Source of the DNA: Patescibacteria group bacterium
GTDB taxonomy: Bacteria; Patescibacteriota; Patescibacteriia; Magasanikbacterales; GWA2-37-8
Length of the DNA: 64,000 bases
Reading direction: 5' to 3'
Assembly (NCBI GenBank): GCA_004321885.1
Contig: SCQK01000004.1
Coordinates: forward strand, 1-64,000
The notes beneath the pieces are model-generated. The model did not search any database. It had not been told where the DNA came from and worked only from the letters and a program-made list of their open reading frames with translations. The translations under genes were made by a program, and so were the position numbers. Shown in pieces: positions 7,798 to 38,410 of the stretch (position 1 is its first letter; each line of letters opens with the position of its first letter).

Positions 7798-9989
7798 ACA
7801 TACATCGTTTTCGCCGCGTTGTAGAGCTGTTTCACCTCGGCCGCCGACAGGGCGCGGTTGTACACGCGGACGTCGTCAATGGAGCCATTAAAATAAGCTA
7901 AATTAGAAGCTCTTCTTAACACGCCAATATCCATCGCTGTCGCGTCAACTATATCACCAAACCAATTTCCAGGATTTGCTACTTGATTTACAGTCATTGT
8001 TTGACTGATACCGTCAATATACGCGCTCCAAGCAGAACCATTAGAAATAAATACAACCTGGTGCCAATTTGTATCTTGATAAGAATTGCTGGGAGTAACA
8101 ACATCACCTTGTAGCGCTTGATTGACACGATTCCAAACTTCTAATCTTTTATTTGTTTTATCAAAATAAAAAACTAATTCATCATCATAAGAACCAGGTA
8201 CGGCAATGCTAAAAAGAGCTAAATCCGCAGACAAGCTGGCCATTTTTGTCCAGAATGCTACTGTTCCTTGTTGATTTGTTAAAAATGAGGGAGAAGTTTT
8301 TTCTATATAATCACTCGTCCCATTAAAACTCATCGCCCCGCTGATTTTCCCCGCCACTTTCGTGGGCGTGTTGGCCGAAGTGCCATGATTTCTATTGCCG
8401 CTTTTATCCCAGACATTTAATCCGCTTATATCCCCGCTGTCCATCGTCCAATACCCCACCAGCCCGCGGCGGGGGGCCGAGTTTGAGTACTTTTTTTTGA
8501 CCGCGTTGTAGAGCTGTTTCACCTCGGCCGCCGACAAGGCGCGGTTGTAGACGCGGACATCGTCAAATACAAAATCCGCTGGTTGTATGTAGCTGACCTC
8601 TTGAAAAATGCCAATCATAAAAAGATTGGCATCAGTCGCGTCATCAAACCATTGTCCAGAATTTGCGCCTGAATAAATGGTGAGCGGCAATGACATATTA
8701 TCAACATAAACGCTTATAGCAGAACCACTGGAAGTAAAAACAATATGATGCCAATTATTGTCGTTAATAGTATTATTGGGCGTCACCATATTCAACGTGA
8801 GGGCTCCATTTTGTGTTAAAATAATTTGAAAGGACTTTGAGCTGTCTCCTCTGTAATCCCAACGCAACGCATCATCAACTACTCCATTTGTCGCGATTGA
8901 GACAAATGTGCTAATAGCAGCATAAGCATTTGACCTTTTTGCCCAAAAAGAAATAGCGCCTTGCGAGTCATTTATAAAAGACGGATTGCTTTTGGTGATC
9001 CACTCCGTGCTCCCGTCAAAATTCAGCGCGTTGCCTATTTTCCCGGCCACGAGGTCGGCCGAGGTGATATTGGTGCCAGTGCCGTGGTTTTGCTGGCCGC
9101 TTTTGTCGTAGACTTTCGTGCCGTTTATATCCCCACTATCCATTGTCCACCACCCCACCAGTTGTTTGCGAACCGGGGCTTTGGTAAAGTTGCTTTTGGT
9201 GGCCTGGTATAGTTGTTTCACCTCGGCCGCCGACAGGGCGCGGTTGTACACGCGGACGTCATCAAGGGAGCCAGGGAAATATGAACCGCCATTTTCCACG
9301 CCTATTTGCAAATTTTTGCTGGAAGCAGCATTTCTGGCCGCCAACCCGCTTGCTGTGCCATCCTGCGCGCCGTTTACGTATACATAAGCATTATCGCCAT
9401 TTCTTACCGCTGCAACATGATACCATGTGTTTGCATTTAATGTAGTCGTCCCCGTGACATCAATACCACCTGAACCAACATAAAAAAGTAATTTTTGCCC
9501 CGCCCCCAAATTACGGGTATCAAATATAAACCCCATCTCACTTGCTCCGCCATTATTATATTTATCTAAAATTAAACTAATGGTGTTCCAAGTTGAGGCT
9601 TTTATCCACGCGGACAGCGTAAAATTTCCTGTCCCAAAATTAAATGACGCGCCTGGAGCTTGTAAGAACTGTGAAGAGCCGTTAAGATTCACAGCTTCCT
9701 TTATTTTCCCCGCCACAACGGTCGGACTGCCTGTTGAAGTAGCGTGATTCTTGTAACCTGATTTATCGTAATAGGTTATCCCACTCACATCCCCGCTATC
9801 CATCGTCCACCAGCCCACCAGCCCTTGGCGCGGGGCCGCGGCGTGGGCGACGTCTACCCCCCCTAGCCCCCCCTTATTAAGGGGGGGGAACGCAAAAAGC
9901 GCGCCCCAGAGAGCGACGCAAAAAACCGACAGCATTGTGGCTCCACGCACAGCATGGAGCCAGCGATTTTTGGAAGGTTTGCGAGACAT
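7791..9989 (-). CDS. secreted protein with three LamG-like lectin domains
   Basis: 732 aa. Signal peptide ending VDVAHAAAP. LSAAEVKQLY motif x3. The first 31 codons lie in a 98-bp segment duplicated at 10758..10856. A family-D palindrome (9848..9885) encodes FPPLNKGGLGGVD in frame. Confidence 0.8.
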   Translation of the reverse strand: MSRKPSKNRWLHAVRGATMLSVFCVALWGALFAFPPLNKGGLGGVDVAHAAAPRQGLVGWWTMDSGDVSGITYYDKSGYKNHATSTGSPTVVAGKIKEAVNLNGSSQFLQAPGASFNFGTGNFTLSAWIKASTWNTISLILDKYNNGGASEMGFIFDTRNLGAGQKLLFYVGSGGIDVTGTTTLNANTWYHVAAVRNGDNAYVYVNGAQDGTASGLAARNAASSKNLQIGVENGGSYFPGSLDDVRVYNRALSAAEVKQLYQATKSNFTKAPVRKQLVGWWTMDSGDINGTKVYDKSGQQNHGTGTNITSADLVAGKIGNALNFDGSTEWITKSNPSFINDSQGAISFWAKRSNAYAAISTFVSIATNGVVDDALRWDYRGDSSKSFQIILTQNGALTLNMVTPNNTINDNNWHHIVFTSSGSAISVYVDNMSLPLTIYSGANSGQWFDDATDANLFMIGIFQEVSYIQPADFVFDDVRVYNRALSAAEVKQLYNAVKKKYSNSAPRRGLVGYWTMDSGDISGLNVWDKSGNRNHGTSANTPTKVAGKISGAMSFNGTSDYIEKTSPSFLTNQQGTVAFWTKMASLSADLALFSIAVPGSYDDELVFYFDKTNKRLEVWNRVNQALQGDVVTPSNSYQDTNWHQVVFISNGSAWSAYIDGISQTMTVNQVANPGNWFGDIVDATAMDIGVLRRASNLAYFNGSIDDVRVYNRALSAAEVKQLYNAAKTMYVK

Positions 9990-13586: not shown

Positions 13587-16500
13587 ATGCCCATCAAACG
13601 AGTTCAAAAAGGACGACTAAAACCACCTGTCATTGCGAGACCTGAAAGAGGCCGCCTGCCCGCCTCTGGCGGGAAGCAATCCCCCGCGATTAAGAGAGGG
13701 ATCGCCGCGTCGCCCCGACGTAACGTCAGGGCTCCTCGCAATGACAAAGTGAAACCCGACACGAGCGGCGGTTACAGCGCCAAAAACATCACGGTGCTGG
13801 AAGGCTTGGAGGCCGTGCGCCGGCGGCCCGGCATGTATATCGGTTCCACGGGCACGACGGGCCTGCATCATCTGGTTTGGGAAGTGGTGGACAACTCCAT
13901 TGACGAAGCCATGGCCGGACATTGCGACCAAATTGACATCGCCTTGCTCCCCGGCCACCTGGTGGAAGTGCGCGACAACGGCCGCGGCATTCCGGTTGAC
14001 ATTCACCCCCAGCAAAAAGTCAGCGCCCTGGAAGTGGTACTCACCAAACTGCACGCCGGCGGTAAATTCGGCGACGGCGGCTATAAGGTCTCGGGCGGCC
14101 TCCACGGCGTGGGCGTGTCTGTGGTCAATGCTTTGTCGTCGTACGTAAAAGCCGAAGTGCATCGCGACGGAAAAATTTGGCTGCAAGAATACAAAAACGG
14201 CGGCCAGCCGGTAAAAAAAGTGCGGGCCATTGGCCCGGCCAAAGACACAGGCACGACCATTACTTTTTTACCCGACGCGAGCGTTTTTGAAACATTGGAT
14301 TTTGACTGGAAGACAATCGTGGACCATATCCGCCAACAGGCCTATCTAAACAAGGGCGTGCTTATTTCCGTTTCCGACCGGCGCCAGGGCGAGGAAAAAA
14401 CCAAAGACGGAACGGCTCTCCCTTATCCCAATCCCTCATATCAATTTTATTTTGAAGGCGGCATTGCTTCTTATGTGCGCCACCTGAATCAAAACAAAGA
14501 ACTGAAAAACGAAACTATTTTTTACGTTGATAAAGAGACCGATGGCGTGCGCGTGGAAACCGCTTTGCAATACACCGACGAATACACCGAATCGCTGTTC
14601 GCCTTTACCAACAACATCCACAATCCCGAAGGCGGCACGCATGTGGCTGGTTTTCGCGCGGCTCTCACACGCGGCCTGAACACCTACGCGCGCAACAAAA
14701 ATATCCTGAAAGAAAAAGACGCGAACCTGACCGGCGAGGACGCGCGCGAGGGCTTGAACTGCGTGATTTCGGTAAAGGTGCGCGAGCCCCAGTTTGAAGG
14801 TCAGACTAAAGCCAAACTGGGAAACACCGAGGTCAAGACCGCGGTGGAATCGGTGTTTGGCGACGCGTTTTTAATTTATTTGGAAGAGCACCCGCGGGAC
14901 GCCGAGGCCATCGTGGGCAAGTGTATCTTGGCGTCCAAAGCGCGCAACGCGGCCAAAATTGCGCGCGACGCCATCCTGCGCAAGGGCGCGCTGGAAGGCT
15001 TTACTTTGCCGGGCAAGCTGGCAGATTGCTCCAGCCGTCACGCCGAAGAGAGCGAATTGTTTTTGGTGGAAGGCGACAGTGCCGGTGGCTGTTTTTTTGG
15101 CTCAACTAAGCTAAAATTAGCCGACGGTCGCAGTTTATCTTTCAAAGAATTGGTGGAGGAAAACAAACAAGAAAAGAAAAACTATTGCTATACAATAAAA
15201 GAGGACGGCGATATTGGCATTGAACTGATAAAAAATCCACGAATGACGAAAACAGGCGCGGAAGTGATAAAAGTTATATTAGATAATGACGAGGAAATTA
15301 TTTGTACTCCGGACCACAAGTTTATGTTAAGGAACGGAGAATACAAGGTGGCACAAAATCTGACTCCCTGCGATTCATTAATGCCTCTATATAGGAAAAT
15401 ATCTGAAAAGAGTGGCAGAATCACAATTGAAGGATATGAAATGACCTTTAACCCGAAAGATGCAAGATGGATTTTCACTCATCTACTGGCAGATGATTAT
15501 AATTTACGAAACGGGGTGTACCCCGATGATAGAGGCACCAACAAGCATCATGTTGATTTTAATAAGTTAAATAATAACCCAGATAATATAGTAAGGATGA
15601 CTCACGAAGATCATATGGCTTATCATGCCATGATGCTTCAATTTGGTTTGCACAGAGCGGATGTAAAAGAAAAATCCAAAAAAGCTCACCAATCCGAGGG
15701 GTTTAAAGAAAAAATGAGCAGAATCATGAGTACTCCGGAAATGAAACAAATGTTAAGCCGCAGAGCGAAAAAGCAATGGGAGAACGAGGAATATAAAAAG
15801 TTCATGACGCAAAAATTCTTGGAATTTTACAATTCTAATGAGGAATACAAAAAAAAGAATAATGATTTTCTTAATAAGGCGCAGGAAGAATATTGGGCTG
15901 ACAAAGCCAACAGGAAAAAACAAGCCGAAAGAGTCACTGCGCATTTCAAGGAACATCCCGAAAGAAAAAAATGGCTTAGGGATTTCGCGAAACGGGAATG
16001 GACAGACAAAAATCTGCTTAAATGGCGAGCCGGGAAAACCAAGGAGCAATGGACTGACGAGTTTAGAAGGAAACGAAAAGAAGCATATGACAAGGTCTAC
16101 TTGACCAGCAGTCTGGCTTTCGCCAAAAAGCTTCTTGAATCCAAAGAAGATATGCTGAAAAAATATGACACTGCGCGAATTAATCTTCCGAAAAAAAATA
16201 CCAACCTGTTGAGCTTGAGGACTTTAATTGACAGATTTTTCAACGGCCAAAAACAAAACTTCCTTGAGGCGGTGGCGAATTATAACCATAAAATAATAAG
16301 AATTGAAAAAGTTGCCGAAAAAATGGACGTATATGATATTGAAGTGCCGCACACGCACAACTTTGCATTGGCCAGCGGCGTGTTCGTGCACAATAGCGCA
16401 AAATCCGGACGCGATCGCGAACACCAGGCCATACTCCCCTTGCGCGGCAAGGTGCTGAACGTGGAGCGCGCGCGCTTGGACAAAATCATCGGCAACAACG

Positions 16501-37884: not shown

Positions 37885-37950
37885 ACATAAATTTCAAATC
37901 TCCTTTTTAGATAGTATAGCAAACAAAAACGCCCCTGTTAAGGGGGCGTT

Positions 37951-38410
37951 TGTGGTTCATGGTTATAAGCCGAATTTTGTACCCCGACGTTACGTCGGGG
38001 CGATGTTCATTTCTCTGGTCTTGACATTGCTGTCAAAATCTTAGCGAGCGAACTTTTTATCCCGACTAAGTCGGGACTCTGCTCTTGCGCCAGACAGGGC
38101 TTGGCACTCTTCGACGTTGCCGCCGAAGGGAGTATGGTAGCTTTGGTCTCGAGAACCACAACTCCCATACACTTTTCACCTTTGACGAACCCCGACTAAG
38201 TCGGGGTGAACGTCCGCCTGTGGCGGACTCTCATGAATCGCTAGTATTGTCTCTGTGCCGCTTTCCCTACGCCGACGTTGCCGCCGACGTGGCGGGTGTT
38301 ACCCGTTGCCTTTTTCTTTACCGGCTAGTTCCGCTAAGGGCGGACAGACGGAAAGGGCGTTCGGACTTTCCTTCCCGACTAAGTCGGGACGAACATCTGC
38401 CACGAACTGA
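37951..38410 (-). ncRNA. rnpB: RNase P RNA (bacterial type A-like)
   Basis: Minus strand contains GGAAAGTCCGAACGCC (CR-I), GGGTAACACCCGCC (GGTAACGCC-like), AAAGGTGAAAAG, and ACAAAATTCGGCTTATAACC (CR-V, ACAGAACCCGGCTTA-like). P1 GTTCGTGG / CCATGAAC. Followed by terminator 37924..37950. Three cccgacttagtcggg hairpins occupy peripheral helix positions (one at P3). Confidence 0.75.

What the first reader, a model, noticed from the sequence alone, without database searches (positions are those of the whole stretch)
15090..16394. GyrB intein with an HNH module at the GDSAGG|S site
A 435-codon insertion starts with Cys right after the conserved GDSAGG and ends with HN before a Ser. It carries an HNH-like HHVD...N...H..H motif rather than LAGLIDADG blocks. 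It is markedly AT-rich relative to the exteins. Minus-strand ORFs listed inside it are compositional artefacts.
Basis: partly seen in the sequence, partly recalled or inferred. Interest (0 to 1): 0.55.

Follow-up and report, generated by a model that had tools for sequence, protein, structure and literature searches.

The report
HNH-type intein in gyrase B
The DNA gyrase B gene of this Patescibacteria genome is interrupted in frame by a 435-residue self-splicing intein with an HNH homing endonuclease; this intein type has long been known in gyrB, so the finding is correct but ordinary.

Summary
Window 15090-16394 is a 435-codon in-frame insertion in gyrB (ORF 13587-17117). It starts with Cys directly after GDSAGG and ends with His-Asn before Ser.

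The central module carries HH-x-D...NNN-P-x-N...H...H. It has no LAGLIDADG match. It matches HNH families only below Pfam's cutoff for this sequence, but the match is consistent across relatives.

Hundreds of homologues sit at the same gyrB site in Patescibacteria, DPANN and other archaea, and cyanobacteria. One is Calothrix PCC 7103, which is listed in the published 'gyrB' intein allele. The closest intein-less relative has an uninterrupted site.

Intein GC3 is 0.43, against 0.65-0.67 in the exteins. Intein similarity to relatives is largely decoupled from extein similarity, which fits horizontal mobility.

The protein is already in NCBI (TAN34015.1). This is a known kind of element and of low interest. 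Splicing and homing are inferred, not shown.

The parts
13587..17117 (+). gyrB precursor ORF: 1176 aa including the intein, 741 aa after splicing
   Evidence: ORF. TIGR01059 gyrB scores 916 bits against a cutoff of 882. Identical to NCBI TAN34015.1.
13587..15089 (+). N-extein (ATPase and transducer domains, start of Toprim), ending ...LVEGDSAGG
   Evidence: GC3 is 0.653.
15090..16394 (+). Intein, 435 aa
15090..15401 (+). N-terminal lobe of the Hint splicing domain (aa 1-104): block A Cys1 at 15090-15092 and block B TPDH at 15306-15317
   Evidence: C1, T73 and H76 are invariant in 39 homologues. Coordinates were checked.
15402..15644 (+). HNH (beta-beta-alpha-metal) nuclease module (aa 105-185); motif HHVDFNKLNNNPDNIVRMTHEDHMAYH at 15546-15626
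15645..16139 (+). Lys/Glu/Trp-rich array of short helices (aa 186-350), presumed DNA-binding arm of the endonuclease; internal repeat 15735-15815 resembles 15957-16037
   Evidence: Nine helices are predicted with pLDDT 71-91. W230, W312 and W321 are near-invariant. The self-repeat has hhalign probability 87% and E 3.9e-6. No PDB relative was found by sequence profile or Foldseek.
16140..16274 (+). C-terminal helical part of the endonuclease region (aa 351-395), possibly helix-turn-helix-like
16275..16394 (+). C-terminal lobe of the Hint domain (aa 396-435): block F (MDVYDIEVP, 16323-16349) and block G ending His434-Asn435
   Evidence: D416, H434 and N435 are invariant. TIGR01443 matches. Coordinates were checked.
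16395..17117 (+). C-extein starting with the +1 nucleophile Ser (16395-16397): rest of Toprim, C-terminal domain, stop codon
   Evidence: GC3 is 0.671.
15188..16561 (-). Span holding five non-coding internal ORFs: minus-strand 15188-15478, 15753-16049, 15827-16093 and 16280-16561, plus plus-strand off-frame 15838-16104
   Evidence: None has a Pfam match at E<=1. The substitution pattern follows the plus frame of the intein. The sense strand is 39% A and purine-rich.

Best explanation
Window 15090-16394 encodes a bifunctional class 1 intein of the long-known Ssp GyrB type, inserted in the Toprim motif EGDSAGG|S of DNA gyrase subunit B of a Patescibacteria (Magasanikbacteria-like) bacterium.

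Protein level (inferred from the established class 1 mechanism and the residues present). The 1176-aa precursor excises the intein in four steps. First, an N-S acyl shift occurs at Cys1, assisted by block B Thr73/His76. Second, the N-extein is transferred to the hydroxyl of Ser+1. Third, Asn435 cyclises, assisted by His434 and block F Asp416. Fourth, an O-N shift gives a 741-aa GyrB with an intact EGDSAGGSAK motif. The intein interrupts this conserved Toprim motif, so gyrase is expected to depend on splicing.

DNA level (inferred). The central HNH beta-beta-alpha-metal nuclease sits on a long Trp-rich helical DNA-binding arm. It would cut or nick an intein-less gyrB allele near GGCGACAGYGCCGGYGGC|AGCGC. 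Recombinational repair from the intein-bearing copy would then copy the element in. This is homing.

The low GC3 and the decoupling of intein similarity from host similarity indicate horizontal acquisition rather than long vertical descent.
For: Shown by tools:
- The boundaries are exact and the ORF is continuous.
- Curated intein HMM thresholds are passed.
- C1, T73, H76, D416, H434 and N435 are invariant in 39 homologues, and Ser follows HN in 38 of the 39 aligned homologues (P0003 and P0017, not in the alignment, end in HNC, as does L016).
- The window's intein keeps 104 of 108 residues that are at least 90% conserved. The four deviations are outside the catalytic motifs.
- The same-site inteins number over 1000 protein hits and 76 genome loci, typically 429-436 aa long.
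- L044, Calothrix sp. PCC 7103, is 52% identical at the same site. That species is listed in the published gyrB intein allele (PMC4071816).
- The N and C lobes align at about 70% and 62% identity to the Ssp GyrB mini-intein.
- The closest intein-less GyrB (80% identical, same gyrB-nusG-rplK synteny) has the uninterrupted site GDSAGG|SAK.
- Only 7 of the 120 closest GyrBs carry an intein. Those inteins are only 53-58% identical to this one although their exteins are 80-83% identical.
- Intein identity is flat at 45-60% while extein identity ranges over 55-80%.
- GC3 is 0.425 against 0.65-0.67 in the exteins.

HNH evidence:
- The motif is present.
- HNH_3 E is 1.6e-4 and PHROG HNH E is 2.9e-5.
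- 24 of 39 homologues hit HNH_3.
- Homologous modules in inteins of phage portal proteins score above the HNH_3 cutoff.
- Purifying selection in the plus frame is seen in every sub-domain.
Against: - No experiment or proteomic data show splicing or endonuclease activity.
- For this sequence HNH_3 stays below Pfam's gathering score.
- The endonuclease may have lost activity while keeping its motifs, which is a normal stage of the homing cycle.
- Mini-inteins at the same site show that the nuclease is dispensable and is often lost.
- The window comes from a metagenome-assembled contig, so population heterogeneity (intein-plus and intein-minus alleles) cannot be assessed.
Confidence: 0.9

Rival explanations
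1. It is a splicing-competent intein whose HNH endonuclease is no longer active. This would be the fixed or decaying stage of the homing cycle, with the element now inherited only vertically.
For: Endonuclease loss is common at this site. Mini-inteins of 141-228 aa occur in L068-L074, and P0201 has a 146-aa one. The helical arm is the least conserved part, with mean pairwise identity 0.46 against 0.59-0.69 for the Hint lobes. HNH_3 is below its cutoff.
Against: All HNH motif residues are kept, as are 104 of 108 highly conserved positions. There is no frameshift or truncation. GC3 well below the host level suggests a fairly recent arrival, not an old fixed element. Close relatives still have empty sites, so targets exist.
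Confidence: 0.3
2. It is an assembly chimera. The AT-rich segment would come from another organism's intein-bearing gyrB and would have been joined into this contig by the metagenome assembler.
For: Composition jumps sharply at both ends of the segment. The source is a MAG contig seen only once.
Against: Both junctions are exact to the codon at the canonical splice sites, and the frame is kept. The exteins on both sides share the same high GC3 and belong to one gene. The conserved flank is only about 18 nt, too short for an assembler to switch templates twice exactly there. The same composition contrast is seen in a relative: L078 has intein GC3 0.38 against 0.48-0.49 in its exteins. This is therefore typical of the element.
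Confidence: 0.02
3. It is a non-splicing Hint or bacterial intein-like domain, or a permanent insertion domain of GyrB.
For: None is specific. Only the general fact that Hint domains also occur in non-splicing proteins (BIL, Vint and hedgehog hits appear).
Against: The C-terminal His-Asn plus a +1 Ser and the complete blocks A, B, F and G are the intein signature. The insertion splits a conserved Toprim motif that is contiguous in intein-less relatives. The best structural matches are true inteins.
Confidence: 0.02
4. It is a domesticated intein that acts as a conditional (for example redox- or stress-gated) switch on gyrase maturation, and not merely a selfish element.
For: The site is in a conserved motif of an essential enzyme, so splicing rate would control gyrase supply. 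There is a second conserved Cys, C72, next to block B, and C33 is near-invariant. Intein clustering in replication proteins has been argued to have functional meaning (PMC4760082).
Against: Nothing here tests conditionality. The sporadic distribution among close relatives and the foreign composition point to a mobile parasite.
Confidence: 0.05

Closest known systems
Ssp GyrB intein (Synechocystis sp. PCC 6803) and the 'gyrB' intein allele of cyanobacteria, Halobacteria and others (Soucy et al. 2014, PMC4071816)
   Same: It has the same host protein and the same insertion point (GDSAGG|S). From my own knowledge the Ssp GyrB intein is also 435 aa; same-site homologues here are typically 429-436 aa. 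It has the same class 1 residues and is homologous over its full length to allele members such as Calothrix PCC 7103 (52%; listed). Splicing of the Ssp GyrB intein and its mini and split derivatives has been shown experimentally (PMC3620165). That the Ssp GyrB intein is the HNH intein of Dalgaard et al. 1997 (NAR 25:4626) is also from my own knowledge. Only the paper's title could be confirmed here, because the paper itself is not held.
   Different: The sequence is divergent: the best match to any same-site intein is 58-60%. The host is a Patescibacteria (CPR) bacterium. Nothing differs in architecture.
I-HmuI and related phage HNH homing endonucleases (PDB 1u3e; Pfam HNH_3)
   Different: I-HmuI is intron-encoded and free-standing, whereas this module is embedded in a Hint domain. 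The 165-aa Trp-rich helical array has no detectable counterpart in the PDB. Sequence identity is about 15%.
HNH-bearing inteins in other hosts (GyrA, T4-like phage portal proteins, phage dCTP deaminase)
   Same: phmmer with the central module alone finds 534 representative proteins. The seven sampled all contain Intein_splicing. Three are GyrA, three are T4-like portal proteins and one has an AAA_5 domain. HNH_3 scores above its cutoff in the portal proteins. A GyrA intein in L016 is about 35% identical over its full length. Phage inteins are about 25% identical over their full length.
   Different: The host proteins and insertion sites differ, so these are other intein alleles, and identity is much lower.
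LAGLIDADG-type inteins (e.g. PI-SceI, PI-PfuI, Mxe/Mtu GyrA-type)
   Different: The endonuclease domain is unrelated. No LAGLIDADG family matches this intein at E<=1.

Membership tests
Intein (class 1, Hint-fold protein-splicing element) | Block A: Cys/Ser/Thr nucleophile as the first residue | tested here: met
   Cys1 at 15090-15092, invariant in 39 homologues.
Intein (class 1, Hint-fold protein-splicing element) | Block B T-x-x-H | tested here: met
   T73-P-D-H76 at 15306-15317. T73 and H76 are invariant.
Intein (class 1, Hint-fold protein-splicing element) | Blocks F and G: conserved Asp in F, penultimate His and terminal Asn, then a Ser/Thr/Cys +1 nucleophile | tested here: met
   D416, H434 and N435 are invariant. 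Ser follows at 16395-16397. TIGR01443 scores 29.7 against a cutoff of 15.6.
Intein (class 1, Hint-fold protein-splicing element) | Curated profile matches above threshold | tested here: met
   PF14890 scores 77.2 bits (cutoff 35.8). TIGR01445 scores 39.7 (cutoff 24.5).
Intein (class 1, Hint-fold protein-splicing element) | Hint fold | tested here: met
Intein (class 1, Hint-fold protein-splicing element) | In-frame insertion in a conserved host motif that is contiguous in intein-less homologues | tested here: met
   L077 (80% identical GyrB) reads GDSAGG|SAK without interruption, and synteny is kept.
Intein (class 1, Hint-fold protein-splicing element) | Actual excision and extein ligation | not testable with these tools
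   This needs expression or proteomics. Splicing has been shown experimentally for the homologous Ssp GyrB intein (PMC3620165).
gyrB intein allele (Ssp GyrB type) | Same insertion point in GyrB | tested here: met
   Every homologue in which both ends were located is inserted after G[DE]SAGG, and all those found by the pattern search have HN|SAK or HN|SGK. The search pattern needed Ala/Gly after the +1 residue, and P0003 and P0017, whose end it missed, end in HN|C like L016.
gyrB intein allele (Ssp GyrB type) | Full-length sequence homology to recognised members | tested here: met
   It is 52% identical over residues 1-435 to Calothrix PCC 7103 (L044), a species listed in the published allele.
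HNH (beta-beta-alpha-metal) homing endonuclease, HNH_3 / I-HmuI-like | HNH motif: His general base at the end of strand 1, structural Asn, His/Asn metal ligand in the helix | tested here: met
   H153-H154, N161/N162/N166 and H175/H179 are conserved in at least 90% of the family. In the model they lie on strands 151-154 and 167-170 and helix 172-183.
HNH (beta-beta-alpha-metal) homing endonuclease, HNH_3 / I-HmuI-like | Profile match above the curated cutoff | tested here: inconclusive
   HNH_3 scores 16.9 bits (whole intein) and 21.7 bits (module alone), below the 24.8 cutoff, with E=1.6e-4. 24 of 39 homologues hit it at E<0.1, best 4.5e-5. PHROG HNH families give 2.9e-5 and 9e-5. Relatives of the module in portal-protein inteins pass the cutoff.
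HNH (beta-beta-alpha-metal) homing endonuclease, HNH_3 / I-HmuI-like | Structural similarity to a solved HNH homing endonuclease | tested here: inconclusive
HNH (beta-beta-alpha-metal) homing endonuclease, HNH_3 / I-HmuI-like | Site-specific cleavage or nicking of the intein-less allele | not testable with these tools
   No biochemical data are available. I found no report of activity for any GyrB-intein endonuclease in the library searches.
LAGLIDADG intein endonuclease | LAGLIDADG blocks C and E | tested here: not met
   No LAGLIDADG family matched at E<=1 or E<=10.

The most novel reading that the evidence does not exclude
Probability: 0.3. Interest if true: 0.3.

Novelty: already known. 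Interest (0 to 1): 0.1.

Why it matters
It matters little beyond correct annotation. The deposited protein (TAN34015.1) is named only 'DNA topoisomerase (ATP-hydrolyzing) subunit B', so flagging the intein gives the true mature size: 741 aa, not 1176. It also prevents alignment and phylogeny artefacts when gyrB is used as a marker.

The locus is a clean example of the features expected of a mobile intein. It has foreign composition, an empty site in the nearest relative, and intein similarity decoupled from host similarity.

The GyrB-type HNH intein endonuclease has, as far as I could find, no solved structure and no published activity. A well-preserved copy such as this one is a reasonable candidate if someone wanted to characterise that enzyme class or derive new split inteins.

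Tried and rejected
- **PDB sequence search with the intein.** Only weak intein hits. No GyrB intein structure exists.
- **PDB search with a profile of the endonuclease domain.** Nothing significant. The best hit was a chance match to a viral capsid at E 0.77.
- **Foldseek of the endonuclease domain against the PDB.** No hit below E=3.8.
- **Pfam at E<=10 on the helical array.** No NUMOD or other DNA-binding family matched. I had suspected NUMOD3-like repeats from the H-x-S-E-x-x-K-x-K-x-S pattern, and this is not supported.
- **Literature.** Dalgaard 1997 (PMC147097) and Chevalier & Stoddard 2001 (PMC55915) are not held. The statement that the 1997 HNH intein is Ssp GyrB therefore rests on my memory plus the confirmed title. 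Searches pairing 'GyrB intein' with 'HNH' found nothing useful.
- **Homologue search with the intein alone.** It returned only proteins of 762 aa or fewer and missed the window's own protein. The extein search was needed to find it and its closest relatives.
- **Rejected readings.** A group I/II intron with an HNH ORF is excluded by the continuous frame and the Hint lobes. A LAGLIDADG intein is excluded because nothing matches. Coding antisense ORFs are excluded.
Full report
**Observation**

The window holds one long ORF at 13587-17117 on the plus strand, 1176 aa. Its ends match DNA gyrase subunit B: TIGR01059 scores 916 bits against a cutoff of 882, and the Pfam families HATPase_c, DNA_gyraseB, Toprim and DNA_gyraseB_C all match.

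Translating 15090-16394 gives 435 codons without a stop. The segment starts CFFGSTKLKLADG and ends ALASGVFVHN. The six codons before it read GDSAGG, and the codons after it read SAKSGRD.

The segment has GC 0.383, against 0.561 and 0.522 in the two exteins. This is not only an effect of its Lys/Glu/Asn-rich composition. GC at third codon positions is 0.425, against 0.653 and 0.671 in the exteins. That is lower than in any of 29 other long ORFs of the window (mean 0.60, sd 0.06, minimum 0.459).

**Is it an intein?**

Yes. The evidence is as follows.
- The insertion passes curated thresholds for Pfam Intein_splicing (77.2 bits, cutoff 35.8), TIGR01445 intein N-terminal region (39.7, cutoff 24.5) and TIGR01443 intein C-terminal region (29.7, cutoff 15.6).
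- In an alignment with 38 homologues, the canonical catalytic positions are invariant: Cys1 (block A), Thr73 and His76 (block B, TPDH), Asp416 (block F), and His434-Asn435 (block G). Ser+1 follows in 38 of the 39 aligned sequences. Two homologues outside the alignment (P0003, P0017) and L016 end in HNC.
- An AlphaFold2 model built on that alignment has mean pLDDT 89.

Neither is met.

**The endonuclease module**

Residues 105-395 lie between the two Hint lobes. The motif HHVDFNKLNNNPDNIVRMTHEDHMAYH (15546-15626) has the spacing of an HNH beta-beta-alpha-metal site. In the model it lies on two strands (151-154 and 167-170) and the following helix (172-183). H153, H154, N161, N162, N166, H175 and H179 are each conserved in at least 90% of homologues.

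Pfam HNH_3 is the only nuclease family matched, but it falls below its gathering score. It scores 16.9 bits with the whole intein and 21.7 bits (E=1.6e-4) with the module alone, against a cutoff of 24.8.

Other evidence supports the HNH call:
- Two PHROG 'HNH endonuclease' families match at E 2.9e-5 and 9e-5.
- 24 of 39 homologues hit HNH_3 at E<0.1.
[quoted passage not shown] HNH Cascade subunits and the GVE2 HNH nuclease follow.
- A phmmer scan of 1.84 billion representatives with the module alone found 534 proteins at E<=0.001. All seven that I sampled contain intein splicing domains. Three are GyrA and three are T4-like phage portal proteins. In the portal proteins HNH_3 scores 36-74 bits, above the cutoff.
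- No LAGLIDADG family matches at any threshold tried.

I therefore accept 'HNH, not LAGLIDADG', with a caveat. The structural match was not reproduced with a model of the endonuclease domain alone.

**The rest of the endonuclease region**

Residues 186-350 are predicted with good confidence as about nine short helices rich in Lys, Glu and conserved Trp (W230, W312 and W321 near-invariant). A profile self-comparison shows an internal duplication: aa 216-242 (PEMKQMLSRRAKKQWENEEYKKFMTQK) resembles aa 290-316 (PERKKWLRDFAKREWTDKNLLKWRAGK), with probability 87% and E 3.9e-6.

By analogy with I-HmuI, this is most likely the DNA-binding arm. In I-HmuI a monomeric HNH domain is tethered to separate DNA-binding regions (PMC3384342). 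This is inference.

**Relatives and the known family**

A search with the intein found 1199 proteins. All that carry a name are GyrB fragments, and many are annotated 'intein-containing DNA gyrase subunit B'. They come from Patescibacteria, Nanoarchaeota/Woesearchaeota, Methanosarcinales, Thermoplasmatota, cyanobacteria, Chloroflexota and Omnitrophota.

In every hit where both ends could be located by a pattern search, the intein sits after G[DE]SAGG and ends HN|SAK or HN|SGK. The usual length is 429-436 aa. That search required Ala or Gly after the +1 residue, so variants such as the HN|C ending of P0003, P0017 and L016 were not counted.

A scan of one genome per species found 76 loci. These include several Calothrix strains, haloarchaea, and seven mini-inteins that have lost the endonuclease.

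Calothrix sp. PCC 7103 (L044, 52% identical over residues 1-435) is listed by Soucy et al. 2014 among the members of the 'gyrB' intein allele. That allele spans Halobacteria, Bacteria and other Euryarchaeota. The list also includes Bacillus subtilis BEST7613 (PMC4071816). From my own knowledge, that strain carries the Synechocystis PCC 6803 genome.

[quoted passage not shown] 1997. The title is confirmed in reference lists, but the paper is not held.

I treat that as a lead, not a test.

Splicing of the Ssp GyrB intein and of its mini and split derivatives is established experimentally (PMC3620165; PMC3443213).

**Mobility**

A search with the spliced extein sequence returned the window's own protein, NCBI TAN34015.1. 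It is annotated 'DNA topoisomerase (ATP-hydrolyzing) subunit B [Patescibacteria group bacterium]', from a contig of 86,683 nt.

The 119 next-best GyrBs are 74-83% identical, and many are from Candidatus Magasanikbacteria. Only six of them carry an intein, and one of those six is a 146-aa mini-intein. Their inteins are only 53-58% identical to this one, although their exteins are 80-83% identical.

The closest intein-less relative (P0122, locus L077, 80% identical) keeps the gyrB-nusG-rplK gene order. It reads GGTGACTCCGCCGGCGGC|AGCGCCAAA straight through the insertion point.

Over 53 full-length same-site inteins, identity to the window's intein stays between 45% and 60%. Extein identity ranges from 55% to 80% (Spearman 0.35). 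The best archaeal inteins are as close as the best bacterial ones.

Together with the low GC3, this is the signature of a horizontally moving element rather than an old vertical passenger.

Distant full-length relatives (about 25% identity) sit in phage genes, which are possible vehicles. Examples are the Aphanizomenon phage dCTP deaminase and Bacillus phage SP-15.

**Integrity and selection**

In 57 distinct full-length inteins, pairwise nucleotide differences follow the plus-frame codon pattern: 0.38, 0.27 and 0.59 for positions 1, 2 and 3. The pattern holds in each sub-domain, including the HNH module and the helical arm.

The window's copy keeps 104 of the 108 residues that are at least 90% conserved in the others. 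The exceptions (G28E, R254K, Q303E, T336V) lie outside the catalytic motifs. The copy therefore looks intact.

The same pattern disposes of the internal ORFs on the minus strand and in another plus-strand frame. They have no Pfam match. The sense strand is 39% A and purine-rich. From that I infer they are the Phe/Leu/Ser-rich mirror image of a Lys/Glu-rich coding strand in which antisense stop codons are rare.

**Mechanism**

The steps below follow from established intein chemistry and the residues present. They are not shown here.
- Cys1 thioester formation.
- Transesterification to Ser+1.
- Asn435 succinimide formation.
- An O-N shift that restores EGDSAGGSAK in a 741-aa GyrB.

The insertion interrupts a conserved Toprim motif, so active gyrase should require splicing.

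At the DNA level, the HNH enzyme would cut or nick an empty gyrB site. The element would then be copied in by recombinational repair.

I put about 0.9 on 'splicing-competent GyrB intein of the known HNH type'. I put about 0.6 on the endonuclease still being active.

**Rivals**

- A decayed endonuclease is plausible, at about 0.3.
- An assembly chimera is very unlikely. Both junctions are exact to the codon, and a relative (L078) shows the same composition contrast.
- A non-splicing Hint domain is excluded by the block G and +1 signature.
- A regulatory 'conditional' intein is untested.

**Verdict**

The element belongs to an intein allele known since the 1990s. It is widely annotated in current databases, and the protein itself is already deposited. 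Novelty is nil at the level of kind. The only mildly open point is that the GyrB-type HNH endonuclease and its Trp-rich helical arm have, as far as I could find, never been characterised structurally or biochemically.

Noticed in passing
L016 4915-7296 (Micrarchaeota MAG JAZDHB010000030.1); similar second hits in L057 5797-7005 and L067 4579-6153: The gyrA gene downstream of gyrB carries two inteins. The first, at DGQGNFG|CFTKDT...VFVHN|SVDGD, is about 35% identical over its full length to the window's GyrB intein and has the same HNH motif (RHHSDFNKLNNSPANIMRM). The second starts at AAMRY|CITGDS; from my own knowledge this is the classical GyrA active-site tyrosine position. The same HNH intein family therefore occupies sites in both gyrase subunits.
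   Followed up: partly
window 15735-15815 and 15957-16037: There is an internal duplication within the endonuclease's helical arm. Intein aa 216-242 resembles aa 290-316, with hhalign probability 87% and E 3.9e-6 on the family profile.
   Followed up: partly
window 1811-3889, 5309-7651, 7791-9989 (minus strand): Three neighbouring large paralogous proteins each have three Laminin_G_3 (concanavalin-like lectin) domains. Their GC is unusually flat across codon positions (about 0.45-0.49 at all three), unlike the other genes of the window.
   Followed up: no
window 23838-23911 (+): There is a tRNA-Ile with anticodon TAT (UAU). From my own knowledge, most bacteria instead use a lysidine-modified CAU tRNA for AUA codons.
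   Followed up: no
window 61251-61314 (+): There is a match to the Rfam DUF3800-II RNA motif (RF02961): 67 bits against a gathering score of 43.2.
   Followed up: no
window 37950-38408 (-): A bacterial class A RNase P RNA is present (131.8 bits). It spans 459 nt for a 367-position model, so it carries insertions.
   Followed up: no
window 13587-13770 (+): The annotated GyrB starts with about 60 basic, Pro/Arg-rich residues (MPIKRVQKGRLKPPVIARPERGRL...) ahead of the first residue matched by the gyrB model (residue 63). The true start codon may lie further downstream.
   Followed up: no
tool behaviour: The homologue search with the intein alone returned only proteins of 762 aa or fewer. It missed the window's own 1176-aa protein and the full-length intein-bearing GyrBs, which the extein query did find. 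Closest-relative statements based alone would have been incomplete.
   Followed up: yes
H1 MG209611.1 68717-69772; H2 KT624200.1 12642-13772: Phage genes carry full-length distant relatives of this intein, at about 25% identity over residues 1-435. Examples are the Aphanizomenon phage vB_AphaS-CL131 dCTP deaminase and a hypothetical protein of Bacillus phage SP-15. Other phage hits cover only the N lobe plus HNH region, in a DNA polymerase and a large terminase.
   Followed up: no
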